A model generated the notes under the pieces. That model did no database searches and was not told the origin of the DNA. It saw only the letters and a list, made by a program, of their open reading frames with translations. The translations under genes and the position numbers were made by a program. Below, in pieces: positions 1,164-5,483 of a stretch of DNA of 5,483 nt. Source of the DNA: a virus (taxonomy: Duplodnaviria; Heunggongvirae; Uroviricota; Caudoviricetes). The stretch lies in the IMG/VR virus record IMGVR_UViG_3300039372_000053, one strand, 5' to 3'. Numbering within the stretch: position 1 is the first letter of the stretch; each line of letters begins with the position of its first letter.

Positions 1164-1311
1164 TCTATATGTCACAACGTGCATCTACGCCATCAAACCA
1201 CGTCAAATAATCAATTATGACGCAGGTATCGTATTAATTGATCTGCATCAACTTAACGTAAAAACAACTTCAGACAATACAAATCAGCGACACTGAATAC
1301 GGGGCAACCTC

Positions 1312-1545
1312 ATGTCAACGAAGAACAAAACCCGCAGAACAACAACCCGCAACATCCGCTTTCCTAACCAAATGATTGAACAAAGTAACATCGCTCTTGA
1401 TCAAAAAGGGTCCGGGAATTTCTCAGCCTGGGTCATTGAAGCCTGCCGCCGGAGACTGTGCTCAGAAAAAAGAGTTTCTCCTGAAGCAAACAAAGAAAAG
1501 AGTGACATTACTGAATTGCTCAGAAAACAGGTCAGACCAGATTGA
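1312..1545 (+). CDS. Small phage protein, DUF3950 / YlcI-like (77 aa)
   Basis: The N-terminus MSTKNKTRRTTTRNIRFPNQMIEQSNIALDQKGSGNFSAWVIEACRRRL matches my recollection of YlcI-type proteins from E. coli lambdoid prophages (DLP12) and of the unannotated ORF at the lambda right end. It is divergent from the terminase genes, as in DLP12. The Shine-Dalgarno is weak (acgggg). Confidence 0.7.
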   Translation: MSTKNKTRRTTTRNIRFPNQMIEQSNIALDQKGSGNFSAWVIEACRRRLCSEKRVSPEANKEKSDITELLRKQVRPD

Positions 1546-1602
1546 AGCAATTTAGATAATCGTGCAGACTACGCCCCCTCATATCACATGGAAGGTTTAT
1601 CT

Positions 1603-2013
1603 ATGGATCAGGTAGTCATTTTTAAACAAATATTTGATAAAGTTCGAAACGATTTAAACTATCAATGGTTTTATTCTGAGCTAAAACGTCACAATGTCTC
1701 ACATTACATTTACTATTTAGCCACAGAGAATGTTCATATTGTATTAAAAAATGATAATACAGTGTTATTAAAGGGCCTAAAAAACATTGTGTCTGTCAAA
1801 TTTTCAAAGGATAGGCATCTTATAGAAACGACCTCTAATAAGCTGAAATCCAGAGAGATCACATTTCAGGAATACAGAAGAAACCTTGCTAAAGCAGGAG
1901 TTTTTCGGTGGGTTACAAATATCCACGAACAAAAAAGATATTACTATACCTTTGATAATTCATTACTCTTTACTGAAAACATACAGAGCACATCACAAAT
2001 GTTTCCACACTAA
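1603..2013 (+). CDS. AT-rich hypothetical protein, 136 aa (moron); possibly DUF1398 / YbcV-YdfO-like by size and position
   Basis: Clean ORF. The track start at 1588 is probably too early: GGAAGG at 1590..1595 lies 7 nt upstream of ATG 1603, giving 136 aa. The product is rich in K/N/Y/F/I. G+C is visibly much lower than the flanks (about one third versus about half, estimated by eye). It sits between the lysis genes and cos on the strand opposite the late operon, where DLP12/Qin carry DUF1398 genes (from memory). Family membership is not verified. Confidence 0.65.
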
Positions 2014-2315
2014 ACCATAACGTCCGGTTTCTTCTACCCCTGCACCGGACTGGCTGACATGAAGAGCAACCCCGCGTTCAGTTGACGCGTTAATAACCCG
2101 GTGTGCATCGTTTTTGATTATTCCCGCACACTCACGCAGAAGGAATTCCCCGTCGGGCTACGGTCATGGTTAATGCGGGAATACGGCGACGATACAGCGC
2201 ATGATGTGTCAGGCTTGAATACCTTTATCCGTTAAAAGGGATATCAGTTAAGTTATCCCGTGCAGGGTATAAGCCATTATCAATCCCCCCGTAGATAGGC
2301 TTTGTAATGACATCT

Positions 2316-2831
2316 TCAATTAATCAGCAGTTCAGGCTGTGTCACCTGCAAGATGTATTCATGCTCGACAGCCAGGACACGCTTCTCTTTCTTCCGTTCG
2401 TTCATTAACCGACTGCCGATCGTACCTTTCAGCTTTGAGCGTGTTTCTTTGGTGGCGTAGCGGTGCTGCATTTCTTCGCCAATTGCCATGCGGCGGCTCA
2501 GTTGCTCTGCCATCCAGTTGAATGCTGCGATATAGCTCTCCTTGATTGCCGCAGCAGCTTTCCCGGTGAACCCCATCACAACCATGATCCAGCCATCTTT
2601 CGTCAGGCTGTACATCGGGCGAACCTTGCCCTGCTCATCGATATAATCAGCCGACGCAAAATTGCGTTGGCTAAACTCACGCGAGCAATCAGCCTTAACC
2701 TGCTCGATTTTCCTGAGAACATCACCGTGTCGCTTGCCGAAGTACTTGGCAATTTTTCTGGATGTGGTAACGACCTCTCCGTTTTTGGCTTGCACCATTT
2801 CTCGGAAGTCGAAGGCTGGAATAACTGAATG
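2316..2831 (-). CDS. Rha-family phage regulatory protein (Phage_pRha domain); 5' end interrupted by the assembly gap
   Basis: The translation contains the signature N-terminal region …GEVVTTSRKIAKYFGKRHGDVLRKIEQV…, typical of Rha proteins. The track starts at Met 2798, but the frame stays open upstream to the N-run (…HSVIPAFDFRE-MVQAKNGE…), so the true N-terminus probably lies in or beyond the gap. Confidence 0.8.
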   Translation of the reverse strand, partial: HSVIPAFDFREMVQAKNGEVVTTSRKIAKYFGKRHGDVLRKIEQVKADCSREFSQRNFASADYIDEQGKVRPMYSLTKDGWIMVVMGFTGKAAAAIKESYIAAFNWMAEQLSRRMAIGEEMQHRYATKETRSKLKGTIGSRLMNERKKEKRVLAVEHEYILQVTQPELLIN

Positions 2832-2841
2832 NNNNNNNNNN
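2832..2841. other. Assembly gap (run of 10 N)
   Basis: Ten consecutive n characters. The length is not a multiple of three and is probably arbitrary, so contiguity and frame across this point are unknown. Confidence 0.99.
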
Positions 2842-3183
2842 AGCGTCTTTACCTTTTAGAAAGTGAGCCTGTCTCACAGAAAAGCCGCCCGAGAGAGGTC
2901 GCCACCTATAACGGCATTTCTCAGGCTCGCTTACTGAAAGGCTCTCGTTAATATGCGCGTGAGATGCGCTGTGAAATTCAGATATAAAAAGCCCCGCGAA
3001 TGCGAGGCTAAATCCTGGTATTTGTAATGAACTGGCTCTTATCTCAACGCAGCCCCTTACTGCGCGCCAGATGCTCAATATCAAGCATCAGCAATGAGAT
3101 GTTTAATCTGGATTTACTCCAGAAGTGATCACCACCCTGTCTACAGAGCCAGATGTGAAGGATGATGAGTAAAATTATTGCTA

Positions 3184-3651
3184 TCATCGAAGGCATTGCG
3201 TCCTAATGTATTCCTGAAGCGTTCTCAGTGCTGTTTGGTCGCGGATAATTCCGTCCCGGATATCGAGAACGTTTCGTCCAGCAACTGGAGAGAGTTCGAC
3301 GGTGGCATCATTGCCCATGCCGGAGGCGCTGGAGGTTTCGGCTGAGGATGGCACAGGGCATTTTCCTTTGACGAGCACCCTGCCACCATTATCAAGCTTC
3401 CGCAGAAGAGCATCATTTTCAGCTTTCGCATCAGCTAACTCCTTCGTGTATTTTGCATCGAGCGCAGCAACATCACGCTGACGCATCTGCATGTCAGTAA
3501 TTGCCGCGTTCGCCAGCTTCAGTTCTCTGACATTTTTGTCGCGCTGGGCTTTGTAGGTAATGGCGTTATCGCGGTAATGATTAACAGCCCATGACAGGCA
3601 GACGATGGTGCAGATAACCAGAGTATAAATAATCGCTGCGACTCTGCTCAC
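3184..3651 (-). CDS. Rz: Rz i-spanin (inner-membrane spanin subunit), start GTG at 3651..3649
   Basis: From the GTG the protein reads [40 protein letters not shown]…[30 protein letters not shown]…, near-identical in its N-terminal two thirds to recalled lambda Rz ([82 protein letters not shown]…). The track start (TTG at 3666) is 5 codons too long. GTG overlaps the endolysin TGA stop (GTGA), and GGGGGA lies 7 nt upstream. Confidence 0.9.
3225..3431 (-). CDS. Rz1: Rz1 o-spanin (outer-membrane lipoprotein), embedded in the +1 frame of Rz
   Basis: [21 protein letters not shown]… has a lipoprotein signal and lipobox (VAGC), followed by a proline-rich mature part ([11 protein letters not shown]). 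This matches recalled lambda Rz1 (MLKLKMMLCVMMLPLVVVGC…PPPPPAW). It is fully embedded in Rz, and GAAGGAG lies 7 nt upstream of the ATG. Confidence 0.85.
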
Positions 3652-4181
3652 TGATCTATCCCCCAACAGGCTAATGCGCTTTCCTGGTCACGACGAATAA
3701 CCTGTCCATAGCAGTTATTTGAACGTATGCGGCAATCGCGCCCACCATCTTTTATCCACCAGCGAATCGCCTCGCATGCGCCCTTACGATCACCGGCATT
3801 CAGCCGCTTATAAAACGTCGACGGGAAACACTTACCGGGGCCAATGTTATAGGGACAGAATGACGCTATACCCGCTTTCTGTGGTTCGGTCAGTGGTACT
3901 TTAATATTGCGCTCCACCCATGCCAGCGCCTTATCACGTTCAATAGCGTTAACCTGGTCGCATTTTTCCTTCGACAGCCTCATTCCCGGTATGACGGGCT
4001 TACCATCCACCATTGTGGCACCACGACAGATGGTCCATATACCGGAACCATCGCGGTATGCCGTTGTGTGGTTACCTTCTTTTTCATCCAGAAACTGGTC
4101 GAGAATATCAGGCGCAGGCGCACCGACGGCAATCAGTGCCAGAACGGCAGCCGACAGGCCGTATCTGATTTTTGCGTTCAT
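3648..4181 (-). CDS. SAR endolysin (T4-type lysozyme, glycoside hydrolase family 24) with N-terminal signal-anchor-release domain, 177 aa
   Basis: The N-terminus [27 protein letters not shown] is a Gly/Ala-rich weakly hydrophobic segment typical of SAR domains. It is followed by the lysozyme catalytic region [20 protein letters not shown]. The organisation resembles phage 21 R and E. coli prophage lysozymes (RrrD/RrrQ type). It lies between the holin and Rz. Confidence 0.9.
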
Positions 4182-4286
4182 GGATATTTATCAGGATTTA
4201 TCGGTTTCTGAACCCTGGATATGTTTATCTGTCCCGGCCTGTTGAATCAGGCAAGGAATAGTTAAATACAATAGAGAGGATTGTTT

Positions 4287-4559
4287 ATGGACAATAGCAC
4301 CATTTCTCTACAGGAGTTGCTCGACTGCATTTCCAAGCTTCGGGATGATGTAAATGCCCTTACTGTCGCATTTTCATATCTGGCATTCTCAATTCCCAAG
4401 GAACAAATGCAACCAACACTGGCATCGCTCCAGCTTGAATCACTCAACCCCAAATGGTCCCAGCAACAACAAAATTCTTTCAAGTGGCTGGCGGTATTAC
4501 TGGAAGAAAAATATGCTGGTGAAATTACCATTTCGGCGGAGTCTTCAGTGAACCAGTAA
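4287..4559 (+). CDS. Candidate small protein (90 aa) antisense to the late/lysis operon; function unknown
   Basis: ATG at 4287 is preceded by AGAGAGGA (4272..4279) with a 7-nt spacer. The track's TTG start at 4281 is less likely. The translation MDNSTISLQELLDCISKLRDDVNALTVAFSYLAFSIPKEQMQ…WLAVLLEEKYAGEITISAESSVNQ has ordinary helical-protein composition, whereas the competing minus-strand frame is Cys/Ser-rich with rare codons. A weak hairpin plus T4 follows at 4602..4628. Its 3' end overlaps the convergent ORF 4525..4869 by 35 nt. No homolog is recognised. Confidence 0.4.
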   Translation: MDNSTISLQELLDCISKLRDDVNALTVAFSYLAFSIPKEQMQPTLASLQLESLNPKWSQQQQNSFKWLAVLLEEKYAGEITISAESSVNQ

Positions 4560-4869
4560 TTCTTCCCGGCAGTTTTCCTTTGTAGGTTATCCACACACCC
4601 TGCGCCTCTAAAATTATGGGGCGCTTTTCCGGTGACTGCTCATCCCCTTCACATAACCCGGCAGCAACATCCAGGAAGACCTGTCTGATGCTCCTTCTGG
4701 CTGCTGCCTCATAAAACCCCAGCGCGGCACCTTCAACACGGTCCAGCGAGATGTCCAGGTCAAAAATTTCACCGTCAAAGCGTTTTTTGTCCCGTAACGC
4801 TAAAGTTACCGTAACTTTATTCTCAAAATTGCGGATCCCTTTCACAATCAGTTCATAGTTTTGAATCAT
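4525..4869 (-). CDS. Hypothetical protein (114 aa) translationally coupled to the holin; possibly DUF1327 / YdfR-like by size and position
   Basis: ATG at 4869 lies 4 nt after the holin TAA stop (4876..4874). GGGGAGAG lies 7 nt upstream, inside the holin 3' end. The protein is soluble-looking and acidic (MIQNYELIVKGIRNFENKVTVTLALRDKKRFDGEIFDLD…). From memory, the Qin prophage has a DUF1327 gene (ydfR) between its holin and lysozyme; sequence identity is not verified. Confidence 0.7.
   Translation of the reverse strand: MIQNYELIVKGIRNFENKVTVTLALRDKKRFDGEIFDLDISLDRVEGAALGFYEAAARRSIRQVFLDVAAGLCEGDEQSPEKRPIILEAQGVWITYKGKLPGRITGSLKTPPKW
4602..4628 (+). terminator. Weak candidate terminator downstream of the antisense ORF
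   Basis: 5-bp stem gcgcc (4602..4606) pairs with ggcgc (4620..4624) around a 13-nt loop, followed by tttt (4625..4628). The stem is short and the loop long, so this is marginal. Confidence 0.25.
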
Positions 4870-4873
4870 TGAA

Positions 4874-5089
4874 TTACTCTCCCCGCGCAGCCTTACGACG
4901 GTCCTCTCTGATTTTGAAATACAGGTTAGTCAGATATGTCAGGAAGCCCAGAACCAGACTCCCCAGTACACCAATCGCAGCCCACTGTGACGGACTGACC
5001 TGATCAAGCCACTGTAAAAACCAGTAGCCAGCACTGCCTGCGGAGGTGCCGTAGGCAATGCCCGTTGAAATTTTATCCATGGATTTCAT
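4874..5089 (-). CDS. Class II holin, phage 21 S21-type pinholin (71 aa) with dual-start motif
   Basis: [71 protein letters not shown] matches recalled S21 / EssD. It has two transmembrane segments, and Met1-Lys-Ser-Met4 gives the antiholin/holin dual start. GGAGGTGAGG lies immediately upstream. The track's extension to 5188 is an open-frame artefact. Confidence 0.9.
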
Positions 5090-5226: not shown

Positions 5227-5254
5227 GCCCGTATCCATATGCGGGCTTTTTTTT
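5227..5254 (+). terminator. Rho-independent terminator (plus strand): 8-bp stem, 4-nt loop, T8 tract
   Basis: gcccgtat (5227..5234) pairs with atgcgggc (5239..5246) around loop ccat, including one G-U pair. It is followed by tttttttt (5247..5254). Confidence 0.6.
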
Positions 5255-5260
5255 GCATGT

Positions 5261-5290
5261 AAAAAGGCCCCAACACATGTGCGTGGGGCC
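5261..5290 (-). terminator. Rho-independent terminator (minus strand), candidate late-operon tR'-like terminator upstream of the holin
   Basis: GC-rich stem ggcccca (5266..5272) pairs with tggggcc (5284..5290) around an 11-nt loop. On the minus strand it is followed by TTTTT (5265..5261). It lies about 170 bp upstream of the holin start in the direction of late transcription. Confidence 0.55.
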
Positions 5291-5483
5291 TGAGAGTATA
5301 CATGGTTTCAGTCAACTGCATGGTGCCGGGTGCCTCCCGGTGAATTCAGTACCAGCACCTGAATCCGCGATTATCCCATATACCTACTCGCTGATTGCCC
5401 CTCCGCACAGGGGGATTCACCATGCCAGTTTCTTTTAACAAACTCCCCGCAAACCAGACAACAGTCAACCGCCTGAATTGTGA

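What the first reader, a model, noticed from the sequence alone, without database searches (positions are those of the whole stretch)
4182..4873. Pinholin and SAR endolysin are split by a ~0.7 kb inserted module
In phage 21 the pinholin S21 and SAR endolysin R21 are adjacent and act as a pair. Here a 114-aa gene coupled to the holin and a further 343 bp holding a convergent antisense ORF lie between them. The 114-aa gene would be co-expressed with the holin from the late promoter, making it a candidate lysis modulator or late-expressed accessory protein. A similar but shorter arrangement (one DUF1327 gene) is recalled for the Qin prophage; the extra antisense ORF appears to be additional.
Basis: partly seen in the sequence, partly recalled or inferred. 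Interest (0 to 1): 0.65.

Follow-up and report, generated by a model that had tools for sequence, protein, structure and literature searches.

The report
Two passenger genes inside prophage lysis cassette
The DNA that separates the hole-forming and wall-degrading genes of this E. coli prophage holds two common, already annotated passenger genes of unknown function: one probably acts on RNA turnover, not on lysis, and the other is a separately transcribed small gene on the opposite strand.

Summary
A phage-21-type pinholin gene (4874-5089, minus) and an R21-like SAR lysozyme gene (3648-4181, minus) are 692 bp apart. Between them lie a 114-aa gene coupled to the holin and a convergent 90-aa ORF on the plus strand.

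The arrangement is not rare. The 114-aa gene is ydfR (DUF1327), found in about 80% of complete E. coli genomes. The two-gene arrangement occurs in about 1,125-1,200 of 5,426 genomes, including CFT073 and BL21. RefSeq annotates it as "YdfR family protein | hypothetical protein".

YdfR is a soluble protein with no membrane segment. A 2026 paper shows that its Qin homologue binds the catalytic half of RNase E, co-purifies RNA and is not toxic. A role in lysis timing is therefore unsupported.

The 90-aa ORF ("gene B", phrog_2411) is a real gene. It encodes an acidic three-helix protein restricted to Enterobacterales and has solitary chromosomal orthologues between dinI and bssS in Serratia-type genomes.

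One thing is new. In six different prophage contexts, B lies convergent to a late-strand gene ending in the same beta-hairpin motif, and in E. coli it sits between two copies of that tail-coding segment.

Neither gene's function is established. Interest is modest.

The parts
5255..5454 (-). STnc100-type small RNA, the leader of the late transcript upstream of the lysis genes. It sets the direction of late transcription.
   Evidence: Rfam RF02076, 139 bits against a gathering score of 47, E=1.2e-31. In CFT073 the antiterminator gene lies further upstream on the same strand.
4874..5089 (-). Phage-21-type class II holin (pinholin), 71 aa, with an MKSM dual start.
   Evidence: PF04971, E=8.6e-36. 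phrog_9876/phrog_20 holin. RefSeq calls it 'class II holin family protein'.
4525..4869 (-). ydfR, a DUF1327 family gene of 114 aa, translationally coupled to the holin gene. Its N-terminal domain has three strands then a helix (residues 1-73). A beta-rich C-terminal tail follows.
   Evidence: PF07041, E=9.4e-41. phrog_406. AlphaFold model strands E5-14, E18-27, E34-43 and helix H50-73, pLDDT 63-87 per 10-residue block over residues 1-70, below 50 from residue 71. 78% identity to Qin YdfR over residues 1-74.
4525..4578 (-). Beta-hairpin tail of YdfR, GKLPGRITGSLKTPPKW*. The same motif ends every late-strand partner of gene B in other prophages. The last 35 bp overlap the 3' end of gene B.
   Evidence: A motif search over 600 kb of loci in six frames hits only next to gene B homologues, plus one remnant. 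Codons differ synonymously between loci (ATT ACT GGT TCA CTG / ATT ACG GGA TCG TTA / ATT ACT GGT TCG TTA; read).
4287..4559 (+). Gene B, 90 aa: an acidic (pI 4.4) soluble three-helix protein of the orphan family phrog_2411, transcribed against the late operon.
   Evidence: phrog_2411, E=4.3e-59. No Pfam, NCBIfam, PADLOC or PDB match. Conservation and selection. AlphaFold: three helices, mean pLDDT 82. Charge and hydropathy.
4242..4280 (+). Candidate expression signals of gene B: TTGAAT (4242-4247), a 19-nt spacer, TACAAT (4267-4272), then Shine-Dalgarno GAGAGG (4274-4279) 7 nt before the ATG.
   Evidence: Read from the sequence. ACAAT and GAGGATT are conserved in the diverged copies of 783R2 and L085. 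The consensus scan did not call it because the spacer is 19 nt. Inferred, not shown.
4256..4528 (.). A 273-bp presence/absence segment relative to phages that have ydfR but not gene B. It is AT-rich (41.8% GC against about 52% in the flanking lysis genes).
   Evidence: Alignment with vB_EcoS-611R1. Composition.
4178..4234 (-). Decayed second copy of the hairpin-tail coding segment (...[18 protein letters not shown]). Its stop codon overlaps the lysozyme ATG (CCATGA). It is a relic of an older arrangement in which the upstream gene ended on the lysozyme start, as ydfR/rrrQ do in Qin.
   Evidence: Frame translations. An intact 24-aa version, [24 protein letters not shown], exists in L095. DNA alignment including the K-12 ydfR 3' end.
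4602..4628 (+). Possible weak intrinsic terminator for the gene B transcript: a 7-bp stem GCGCCUC/GGGGCGC, a 9-nt loop, then UUUU, about 45 nt after the stop and inside ydfR on the other strand.
   Evidence: RNA fold. The z-score of the region is only -1.18, and the terminator scan did not call it. Weak.
3648..4181 (-). R21/RrrD-type lysozyme, 177 aa, with an N-terminal signal-anchor-release-like segment.
   Evidence: PF00959, E=1.3e-24. PDB 3HDE/3HDF and 4ZPU (RrrD) at E about 1e-16. Hydrophobic peak at residue 9.
3184..3666 (-). Rz spanin gene with the embedded Rz1 lipoprotein gene (3225-3431). Together they complete the lysis cassette.
   Evidence: PF03245, E=6.7e-31, and PF06085, E=3e-20.

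Best explanation
The 692 bp between the pinholin and the SAR endolysin genes is two nested layers of accessory DNA, both widespread in E. coli prophages. It is not a lysis-control module.

Layer 1, ydfR:
- It is read from the Q-dependent late mRNA by translational coupling to the holin gene.
- Its product is a soluble, mildly basic protein: a three-strand-plus-helix domain followed by a basic beta-hairpin tail.
- By homology with Qin YdfR, it binds the catalytic half of RNase E and RNA.
- I infer that it acts on RNA turnover in the cytoplasm late in infection, not on membrane hole formation.

Layer 2, gene B:
- It is a 273-bp AT-rich insertion carrying a 90-aa gene on the opposite strand. It has its own ribosome-binding site and a -10-like element, which makes it a 'moron'.
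- No upstream gene shares its strand. If it is expressed at all, it must therefore be transcribed from the 105-bp spacer.
- Late transcription runs antisense through the whole gene. I infer that B is made in the lysogen and shut down after induction.
- B is an acidic three-helix protein of an Enterobacterales-only orphan family.

Relation between B and its partner: in prophages B always travels with the hairpin-tail coding segment of a convergent late gene. Most likely B acts on or together with hairpin-bearing proteins such as YdfR. The tail segment also serves as the homology through which the cassette recombines into new sites.

Shown: the gene identities, the coupling geometry, conservation and selection, the distribution, and the cassette architecture.
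Inferred: the expression timing of B, any contact between B and the tail, and the RNase E role for this particular YdfR allele.
For: Identities.

ydfR:
- It is ubiquitous, with 8,603 places in 4,348 of 5,426 genomes.
- It also occurs without B (Qin; 611R1).
- It has no membrane segment.
- It is 78% identical to Qin YdfR over the region sufficient for RNase E binding (PMC13232886).

Gene B:
- It is a real gene.
- It is a presence/absence indel with low GC.
- It is found in 1,221 of 5,426 genomes.
- Its orientation is opposite to all neighbours in 85 of 85 E. coli-type loci.
- Stand-alone chromosomal orthologues lie after the dinI terminator in Serratia-type genomes.

Cassette:
- There is a convergent partner with motif G-x-[ILV]-..-[IL]-[TFS]-G-[SED]-[LI] in six unrelated prophage positions.
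- A duplicated tail remnant lies upstream of the lysozyme start.
- The same holin-ydfR-B block is joined to a different lysis cassette in an Stx2k phage.
Against: - No transcription data for gene B were found. The promoter guess has a 19-nt spacer and was not called by the scan, and one diverged copy has GACAAT instead of TACAAT.
- Three of 20 E. coli sequence variants of B carry premature stops. Many frameshifted protein clusters also exist. Selection on B is therefore not strong everywhere.
- Most ydfR loci lack B, and chromosomal B genes lack a hairpin partner. Neither strictly needs the other.
- The tail part of the YdfR model has low confidence (pLDDT below 50).
- RNase E binding was shown only for the Qin allele, which has a different C-terminus. 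Overproducing it changed few transcripts.
- A genetic screen cited in that paper linked ydfR to envelope integrity. That leaves some room for a lysis-related role.
Confidence: 0.55

Rival explanations
1. YdfR is a lysis modulator made together with the pinholin, for example a timing regulator or an accessory factor for the pinholin/SAR endolysin pair. The module tunes the lysis clock.
For: - Its position between S and R is fixed, and it is tightly coupled to the holin stop codon.
- The arrangement is kept in thousands of prophages.
- In Qin its stop overlaps the lysozyme start.
- A screen cited in PMC13232886 lists ydfR among genes important for envelope integrity.
Against: - There is no membrane segment or signal peptide (max KD19 0.69). 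It therefore cannot act as an antiholin-type membrane protein.
- Overproduction of Qin YdfR causes no growth defect.
- The protein binds RNase E and RNA.
- Many S21-type cassettes, such as H-19B and many Stx phages, have S and R adjacent without it.
- In phiSTEC1575-Stx2k the block sits in front of a quite different holin and endolysin set.
Confidence: 0.15
2. Gene B is a selfish or neutral passenger with no role linked to YdfR. It is always found next to a hairpin tail only because the tail-coding DNA is the homology patch through which the cassette recombines between phages.
For: - B is flanked by two direct copies of the tail segment, one of them decayed.
- Crossovers map to the cassette edges.
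- B is lost by a clean deletion in many lineages.
- Premature stops and frameshifts are frequent.
- B and ydfR each occur without the other.
Against: - The tail motif is kept at the protein level with little DNA identity between distant cassettes. It would therefore be a poor substrate for homologous recombination across genera.
- B itself is under purifying selection, with pN/pS 0.32. It is also kept as a stable chromosomal gene across Serratia and relatives.
Confidence: 0.2
3. The pair is a toxin-antitoxin, abortive-infection or superinfection-exclusion cassette. The late-strand hairpin protein would be the effector, and B the lysogen-expressed antidote or sensor.
For: - The convergent two-gene architecture with 3' overlap is conserved in six prophage contexts.
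- The charges are opposite: B is -5.5 and the YdfR tail +4.8.
- Neighbouring prophage regions are rich in such accessory systems, for example HicAB and an ADP-ribosyltransferase toxin gene in the Citrobacter locus.
Against: - There is no PADLOC hit for either protein.
- YdfR overproduction is not toxic.
- About 84% of ydfR places have no B: 8,603 against 1,354 places. That is incompatible with an obligatory antidote.
- Other partners' tails are not basic.
Confidence: 0.07
4. The functional product is the plus-strand RNA, not the protein. A transcript started upstream of B runs antisense into ydfR and the holin gene and damps leaky late-gene expression in the lysogen.
For: - The transcription is convergent and the genes overlap at their 3' ends.
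- Only a weak terminator-like hairpin follows B.
- A strong plus-strand terminator lies just beyond the holin start at 5227-5246.
Against: - The reading frame, not just the DNA, is conserved down to about 25-40% protein identity and in non-prophage loci.
- Codon position 2 is the least variable.
- The 5227-5246 terminator is also present in a phage that lacks B, and absent from most B-bearing loci.
Confidence: 0.05

Closest known systems
essQ-ydfR-rrrQ-rzpQ lysis cassette of the cryptic prophage Qin (E. coli K-12)
   Same: It has the same S21-type holin, then a DUF1327 gene 4 nt after the holin stop, then an RrrD/R21-type lysozyme and spanins. The YdfR N-terminal domains are 78% identical.
   Different: Qin YdfR is 103 aa, lacks the GKLPGRITGSLKTPPKW tail, and ends on the lysozyme start codon. 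Qin has no gene B and no 343-bp spacer.
Phage 21 lysis cassette (S21 pinholin, R21 SAR endolysin, Rz/Rz1)
   Same: The holin family is the same (PF04971) with a dual start, and the lysozyme is homologous to the solved R21 structures. Gene order and strand are the same.
   Different: From established knowledge, S21 and R21 are adjacent in phage 21. Here two accessory genes lie between them.
Lambdoid 'morons' such as lambda bor
   Same: From established knowledge, bor is an accessory gene beside the lysis genes, on the strand opposite to late transcription, and expressed from the prophage. Gene B likewise is a small gene of lower GC content, present or absent between otherwise collinear phages, and lies beside the lysis genes against the late operon.
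   Different: A promoter and terminator are not demonstrated for B. B is cytoplasmic and acidic, not a lipoprotein. It overlaps the 3' end of a late gene and travels with a piece of that gene's coding sequence. That last feature is not part of the usual moron picture.
176/183-aa YdfR variants with an antisense phrog_2572 gene (for example L095)
   Same: The slot and the architecture are the same. The ydfR 3' end is overlapped by a convergent small helical-protein gene that lies between ydfR and the lysozyme gene.
   Different: The antisense gene is unrelated to B (hhalign probability 0.2%). This YdfR carries an extra helical C-terminal extension after the hairpin.
phiKZ Dip (gp37), a phage inhibitor of the RNA degradosome
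   Different: There is no sequence similarity, the match is weak and rests on a low-confidence model, and Dip is much larger. From established knowledge, Dip binds the RNase E scaffold region, whereas Qin YdfR binds the catalytic half.

Membership tests
Phage 21 class II holin (pinholin), PF04971 | Sequence match to the family profile above the curated threshold | tested here: met
   122.2 bits against a cut-off of 26, E=8.6e-36.
Phage 21 class II holin (pinholin), PF04971 | Dual translational start (Met1 and Met4) and two hydrophobic segments in about 70 aa | tested here: met
   The sequence starts MKSMDK.... The hydrophobic peak is KD19 1.72 at residue 36. The first, weaker segment was read by eye.
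Phage 21 class II holin (pinholin), PF04971 | Forms small heptameric pinholes that depolarise the membrane but do not release a folded endolysin | not testable with these tools
   Needs experiments.
SAR endolysin of the R21 / RrrD type | Homology to the phage 21 lysozyme catalytic domain | tested here: met
   PF00959, E=1.3e-24. PDB 3HDE/3HDF at E 3e-16 and 4ZPU (RrrD) at E 6.5e-16.
SAR endolysin of the R21 / RrrD type | N-terminal weakly hydrophobic, Gly/Ala-rich signal-anchor-release segment | tested here: met
   Residues about 8-25, [17 protein letters not shown]. KD19 maximum 1.87 at residue 9. Release from the membrane was not tested.
YdfR / DUF1327 (PF07041) | Sequence match to the family profile above the curated threshold | tested here: met
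   138.4 bits against a cut-off of 25. phrog_406, E=1.6e-66. RefSeq names the identical arrangement 'YdfR family protein'.
YdfR / DUF1327 (PF07041) | Binding to the RNase E N-terminal half and to RNA, reported for Qin YdfR residues 1-72 | not testable with these tools
   Only homology could be checked: 78% identity over residues 1-74. The experiments are in PMC13232886.
Antiholin or membrane-bound lysis regulator | A membrane segment, or a periplasmic domain with an export signal | tested here: not met
   YdfR has a max KD19 of 0.69, and gene B 0.88. Neither has a signal-peptide-like N-terminus.
Moron (autonomous accessory gene in a lambdoid late region) | Present or absent between otherwise collinear phages, with composition different from the flanks | tested here: met
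   A 273-bp indel against 611R1. GC 41.8% against about 52%.
Moron (autonomous accessory gene in a lambdoid late region) | Own promoter and own terminator | tested here: inconclusive
   TTGAAT, 19 nt, TACAAT was read by eye and not called by the scan. The hairpin plus UUUU at 4602-4628 is weak. No expression data were found.
Toxin-antitoxin pair | The two genes are kept together, and one product is toxic without the other | tested here: not met
   ydfR is at 8,603 places and B at 1,354. B is solitary in chromosomes. Qin YdfR overproduction gives no growth defect.
Known anti-phage defence systems (PADLOC) | Profile match of either protein | tested here: not met
   No hits for YdfR, for B, for the phrog_2572 protein or for three of the four partner proteins. 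The 85-aa coiled-coil partner gave only weak low-score matches at E<=1.

The most novel reading that the evidence does not exclude
Gene B and the hairpin tail of its convergent partner form a previously undescribed mobile two-part cassette of enterobacterial prophages. It would work as follows. A lysogen-expressed acidic three-helix protein binds or antagonises late proteins that carry the G-x-[ILV]-..-I-T-G-S-L hairpin, here the RNase E-binding YdfR. Expression of the two is made mutually exclusive by complete antisense overlap of B with the late transcript. That would be a new prophage switch that connects lysogeny or induction with control of host RNA decay. It would also have a domesticated chromosomal relative in the dinI-bssS stress locus of Serratia.
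Probability: 0.12. Interest if true: 0.6.

Novelty: new member of a known kind. Interest (0 to 1): 0.3.

Why it matters
The main result is negative. The split between pinholin and SAR endolysin is a common, annotated arrangement, present in CFT073, BL21 and about a fifth of complete E. coli genomes. It gives no sign of a new lysis mechanism.

Two points could still be useful:
- ydfR is one of the most widespread prophage genes of E. coli. It now has a published link to RNase E. Its fixed place in the late operon next to the holin suggests a testable role in late mRNA stability.
- The orphan family of gene B always accompanies a conserved hairpin tail in prophages. It also has a stable chromosomal orthologue between dinI and bssS in Serratia-type genomes. 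This gives a concrete handle on a gene family with no known function.

Tried and rejected
Searches on gene B that found nothing:
- Pfam, NCBIfam, PADLOC and PDB sequence searches, including per-member Pfam scans of the alignment at E up to 10 and a profile search of the PDB at the same limit.
- An exhaustive HMMER profile search of 1.84 billion representatives. It gave only 20 hits, all small proteins of the same family or noise.

Weak result on YdfR:

Ideas tested and dropped:
- The antisense 110-aa ORF (4262-4594, minus) as the real gene. It has an even lower pN/pS (0.19) because its wobble positions coincide with those of B. I rejected it because it is broken in 783R2 and Citrobacter while B is intact, and because codon position 2 of B is the least variable.
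- Homology between B and the alternative antisense gene phrog_2572: none.
- A LexA box upstream of B or of its Serratia orthologues: none seen by eye.
- The plus-strand terminator at 5227-5246 as the end of a B antisense transcript. It also occurs in a phage without B and is absent from other B loci.

Other dead ends:
- Searches with distant B homologues P0066 and P0072 in viral contigs found nothing. The alignment was too diverse for a metagenome scan.
- Literature searches for the protein accessions and PHROG numbers found nothing.
- A complex prediction of B with YdfR was not possible with the tools.
Full report
**What is in the sequence**

The lysis genes lie on the minus strand. Along the direction of late transcription the order is as follows.
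- An STnc100-type leader RNA at 5255-5454 (Rfam, 139 bits).
- A 71-aa holin at 4874-5089. It matches the phage 21 holin family PF04971 at E=8.6e-36 and starts MKSM.
- A 114-aa ORF at 4525-4869. Its ATG follows the holin stop by 4 nt, and a GGGGAGAG ribosome-binding site lies inside the holin 3' end.
- A 343-bp stretch (4182-4524).
- A 177-aa lysozyme at 3648-4181. It matches PF00959 and is homologous to the solved phage 21 lysozyme 3HDE/3HDF and to RrrD. Its N-terminus is hydrophobic.
- Rz with embedded Rz1.

A plus-strand ORF lies inside the 343-bp stretch. It runs 4287-4559 from its ATG (90 aa) and overlaps the last 35 bp of the 114-aa gene.

**How common it is**

The arrangement is ordinary.
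- A megablast of 4100-4950 against 5,426 complete E. coli genomes finds the whole arrangement, at 80% coverage or more, in 1,125 of them. These include CFT073. RefSeq lists 'class II holin family protein | YdfR family protein | hypothetical protein | lysozyme'.
- The segment specific to the plus-strand ORF is found in 1,221 genomes, including BL21.
- The N-terminal half of the 114-aa gene is found at 8,603 places in 4,348 genomes.
- Three deposited phages carry the plus-strand ORF: Chlobot, vB_EcoS-783R2 and phiSTEC1575-Stx2k.

**The 114-aa gene is ydfR**

It matches DUF1327 (PF07041) at 138 bits and phrog_406. That version is essQ, then a 103-aa ydfR, then rrrQ, with the ydfR stop overlapping the rrrQ start.

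The two proteins are 78% identical over residues 1-74 and then diverge completely. The AlphaFold model gives three strands and a long helix for residues 1-73 at moderate confidence. Three further strands at 83-109 have low confidence.

The protein has no membrane segment (max KD19 0.69) and is mildly basic.

The only functional study found is a 2026 paper on Qin YdfR (PMC13232886). It reports the following.
- Qin YdfR was recovered in bacterial two-hybrid screens for RNase E/RNase G interactors.
- Its first 72 residues are sufficient for the interaction.
- It co-purifies with the RNase E N-terminal half.
- It brings down DNase-resistant nucleic acid.
- It is not expressed in K-12 under standard conditions.
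- It causes no growth defect when overproduced.

I conclude that YdfR is a late-expressed cytoplasmic protein. It more probably acts on RNA metabolism than on the lysis clock. A lysis role is not excluded, because the same paper cites an envelope-integrity screen that picked up ydfR.

**The plus-strand ORF (gene B) is a real gene**

- It matches phrog_2411 end to end at E=4e-59.
- Close homologues occur in Escherichia, Shigella and E. albertii.
- A profile search extends the family to Citrobacter, Atlantibacter, Yersinia, Serratia, Sodalis, Brenneria and relatives. It yields 119 clusters, all Enterobacterales apart from two records whose source names (Pseudomonas) look mis-assigned.
- An exhaustive HMMER search of 1.84 billion representatives finds only 20 proteins.
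- Among 16 intact distinct E. coli sequences, pN/pS is 0.32. Variable sites fall 14/7/24 on codon positions 1/2/3.

A 110-aa ORF on the minus strand (4262-4594) shares the wobble positions and scores even lower (0.19). However, it is interrupted in 783R2 and in Citrobacter, where gene B stays intact. It also makes position 2 more variable than position 1. B is therefore the coding frame.

B has a GAGAGG ribosome-binding site 7 nt before the ATG. It is acidic (pI 4.4), has no membrane segment, and is predicted as a three-helix bundle with mean pLDDT 82. No Pfam, NCBIfam, PADLOC, PDB-sequence or fold match gives a function.

**Two layers, not one module**

An alignment with vB_EcoS-611R1 shows a 273-bp indel (window about 4256-4528). 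It removes B except its last ten codons, which are also the last codons of ydfR on the other strand. The indel has 41.8% GC against about 52% in the lysis genes.

The 60 bp just upstream of the lysozyme ATG (4178-4234, minus strand) read '...[18 protein letters not shown]', with the stop overlapping the ATG. In loci with the 176-aa YdfR variant, the same place holds an intact 24-aa frame, [24 protein letters not shown]. The K-12 ydfR 3' end (…HHKYL*) aligns there too.

B therefore sits between two direct copies of a 'hairpin tail' coding segment: a live one that now ends ydfR, and a decayed one still attached to the lysozyme start. This suggests the following order of events, which is my inference.
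1. An older arrangement like Qin, in which the upstream gene ended on the lysozyme start.
2. Insertion of a tail-plus-B cassette.
3. In many lineages, deletion of B (the 611R1 type).

The same slot can hold a different antisense gene, phrog_2572, together with a different YdfR C-terminal extension. In phiSTEC1575-Stx2k the holin-ydfR-B block is joined, exactly at the lysozyme ATG, to a different set of two holins and an M15 peptidase.

**A conserved convergent cassette**

Outside the E. coli lysis cassette, B homologues occur in five other prophage positions.
- Upstream of a lambda-S-type holin in Citrobacter.
- Between gpM-like and gpL-like tail genes.
- Between gpI and gpJ in Yersinia.
- Between gpI and gpJ in a second phage.
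- Near a CI-like repressor.

In each case a late-strand gene converges on B and overlaps its 3' end. That gene carries the motif seen at the end of YdfR. Its remaining sequence is unrelated between loci: a 238-aa protein, or coiled coils of 52-85 aa.

| Locus | Motif |
|---|---|
| window (YdfR) | GKLPGRITGSL |
| Citrobacter | GKIRNEKITGSL |
| L088/L089 (M/L tail genes) | GNIFS(D/E)QIFG(D/E)L |
| Yersinia and L099 (I/J tail genes) | GELYSE(R/K)ITGSL |
| L097 (near CI) | GNVFTEQLSGEI |

A regular-expression scan of all 104 loci (600 kb, six frames) finds the motif only at these places, plus the remnant mentioned above.

The codons differ synonymously between loci, and overall DNA identity is low. 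The peptide, not the DNA, is therefore conserved. In the tail-module and Stx2k-phage contexts examined (L088/L089, L092, L099, L103), a late-strand intrinsic terminator follows the cassette.

By contrast, chromosomal B genes are solitary.
- In Serratia-type genomes B lies in a fixed locus, rne-pyrC-dinI-B-bssS-solA, after the dinI terminator.
- In Sodalis and in an E. coli island next to an autotransporter gene it has other neighbours.

**Likely mechanism**

Shown:
- ydfR is coupled to the holin gene in the late operon.
- B is a conserved protein gene on the opposite strand, with no upstream gene on its strand.
- The late transcript must run antisense through all of B.
- B and hairpin-bearing genes co-occur in prophages.

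Inferred:
- B is transcribed from the 105-bp AT-rich spacer. A candidate promoter is TTGAAT, 19 nt, TACAAT at 4242-4272. It was not called by the scan, but its ACAAT core is conserved.
- B is made in the lysogen and is silenced by convergent late transcription after induction.
- Its product acts on or with hairpin-bearing late proteins.
- YdfR acts through RNase E and RNA.

The main alternative for the association is that the tail segment is simply the recombination handle of a selfish cassette. Three observations keep that rival alive: the duplicated tail, the frequent loss of B, and the fact that about 84% of ydfR places lack B. A toxin-antitoxin reading fails on the co-occurrence numbers and on the lack of YdfR toxicity. 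An RNA-only reading fails on protein-level conservation.

**Verdict**

The lysis-modulator interpretation is not supported. The arrangement is a new member of a known kind: accessory 'moron' genes in lambdoid late regions, here already annotated in more than a thousand genomes.

The convergent B/hairpin cassette and the chromosomal dinI-bssS orthologue are, as far as I could find, undescribed. They are worth a small experiment, but nothing here points to a new principle. Interest 0.3.

Noticed in passing
window 5255-5454 (minus): Full-length match to the Rfam small RNA STnc100 (139 bits). It lies where the short leader of the late transcript is expected. It is followed on the same strand by a hairpin, GGCCCCA...TGGGGCC, plus a T-run that the terminator scan missed.
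   Followed up: partly
window 5227-5246 (plus): Strong plus-strand intrinsic terminator (8-bp stem, T8) pointing out of the lysis genes, just beyond the holin start. It is also present in phage 611R1, which lacks gene B, and absent from the other loci, so it is not tied to B. Its purpose is unexplained.
   Followed up: partly
window 2832-2841: A run of 10 N interrupts the sequence between the Rha-family gene (2316-2798, minus) and the region downstream of Rz. ORFs that cross it are unreliable.
   Followed up: no
window 4178-4234 (minus); L095 3282-3356: A decayed copy of the YdfR-type hairpin tail, ending ...KPINPDKYP*, whose stop overlaps the lysozyme ATG. An intact 24-aa version exists in prophages with the 176-aa YdfR. 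The lysozyme gene itself has no obvious Shine-Dalgarno sequence, so it may have depended on coupling to this lost frame.
   Followed up: partly
L103 (phage phiSTEC1575-Stx2k, OQ243220.1) 1285-3303: An S21-type pinholin, ydfR and gene B are followed not by a SAR lysozyme but by two other holin genes and an M15 peptidase. This is a pinholin without its usual SAR endolysin partner, downstream of stx2k and iraM.
   Followed up: no
L095 2979-3239 (minus): Prophages with the 176/183-aa YdfR variants carry a different convergent 86-aa gene (phrog_2572, helical, function unknown) in the same slot between ydfR and the lysozyme gene. It overlaps the ydfR 3' end by 53 nt.
   Followed up: partly
L090, L100, L101, L102 (Serratia-type chromosomes): Homologues of gene B occupy a fixed chromosomal position between dinI and bssS, near rne and pyrC, as stand-alone genes. 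E. coli has no gene at that position as far as I recall.
   Followed up: partly
L006 (Citrobacter meridianamericanus) 4087-5847: Just upstream of the cassette in the Citrobacter prophage lie a HicA/HicB toxin-antitoxin pair and a pertussis-toxin-S1-like ADP-ribosyltransferase gene. This is the position where Stx phages carry stx.
   Followed up: no
window 4262-4594 (minus): A 110-aa antisense ORF covering all of gene B stays open in almost all E. coli copies, and its pN/pS is 0.19. This is an artefact of shared wobble positions, since the ORF is broken in 783R2 and Citrobacter. It is a reminder that pN/pS alone cannot pick the strand.
   Followed up: yes
window 3044-3196 (minus) and 1312-2013 (plus): A 50-aa hydrophobic ORF lies downstream of Rz and is annotated as hypothetical in CFT073. 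The ynfO and ydfO (DUF1398) genes lie on the plus strand between the lysis genes and the terminase small subunit gene, as in Qin.
   Followed up: no
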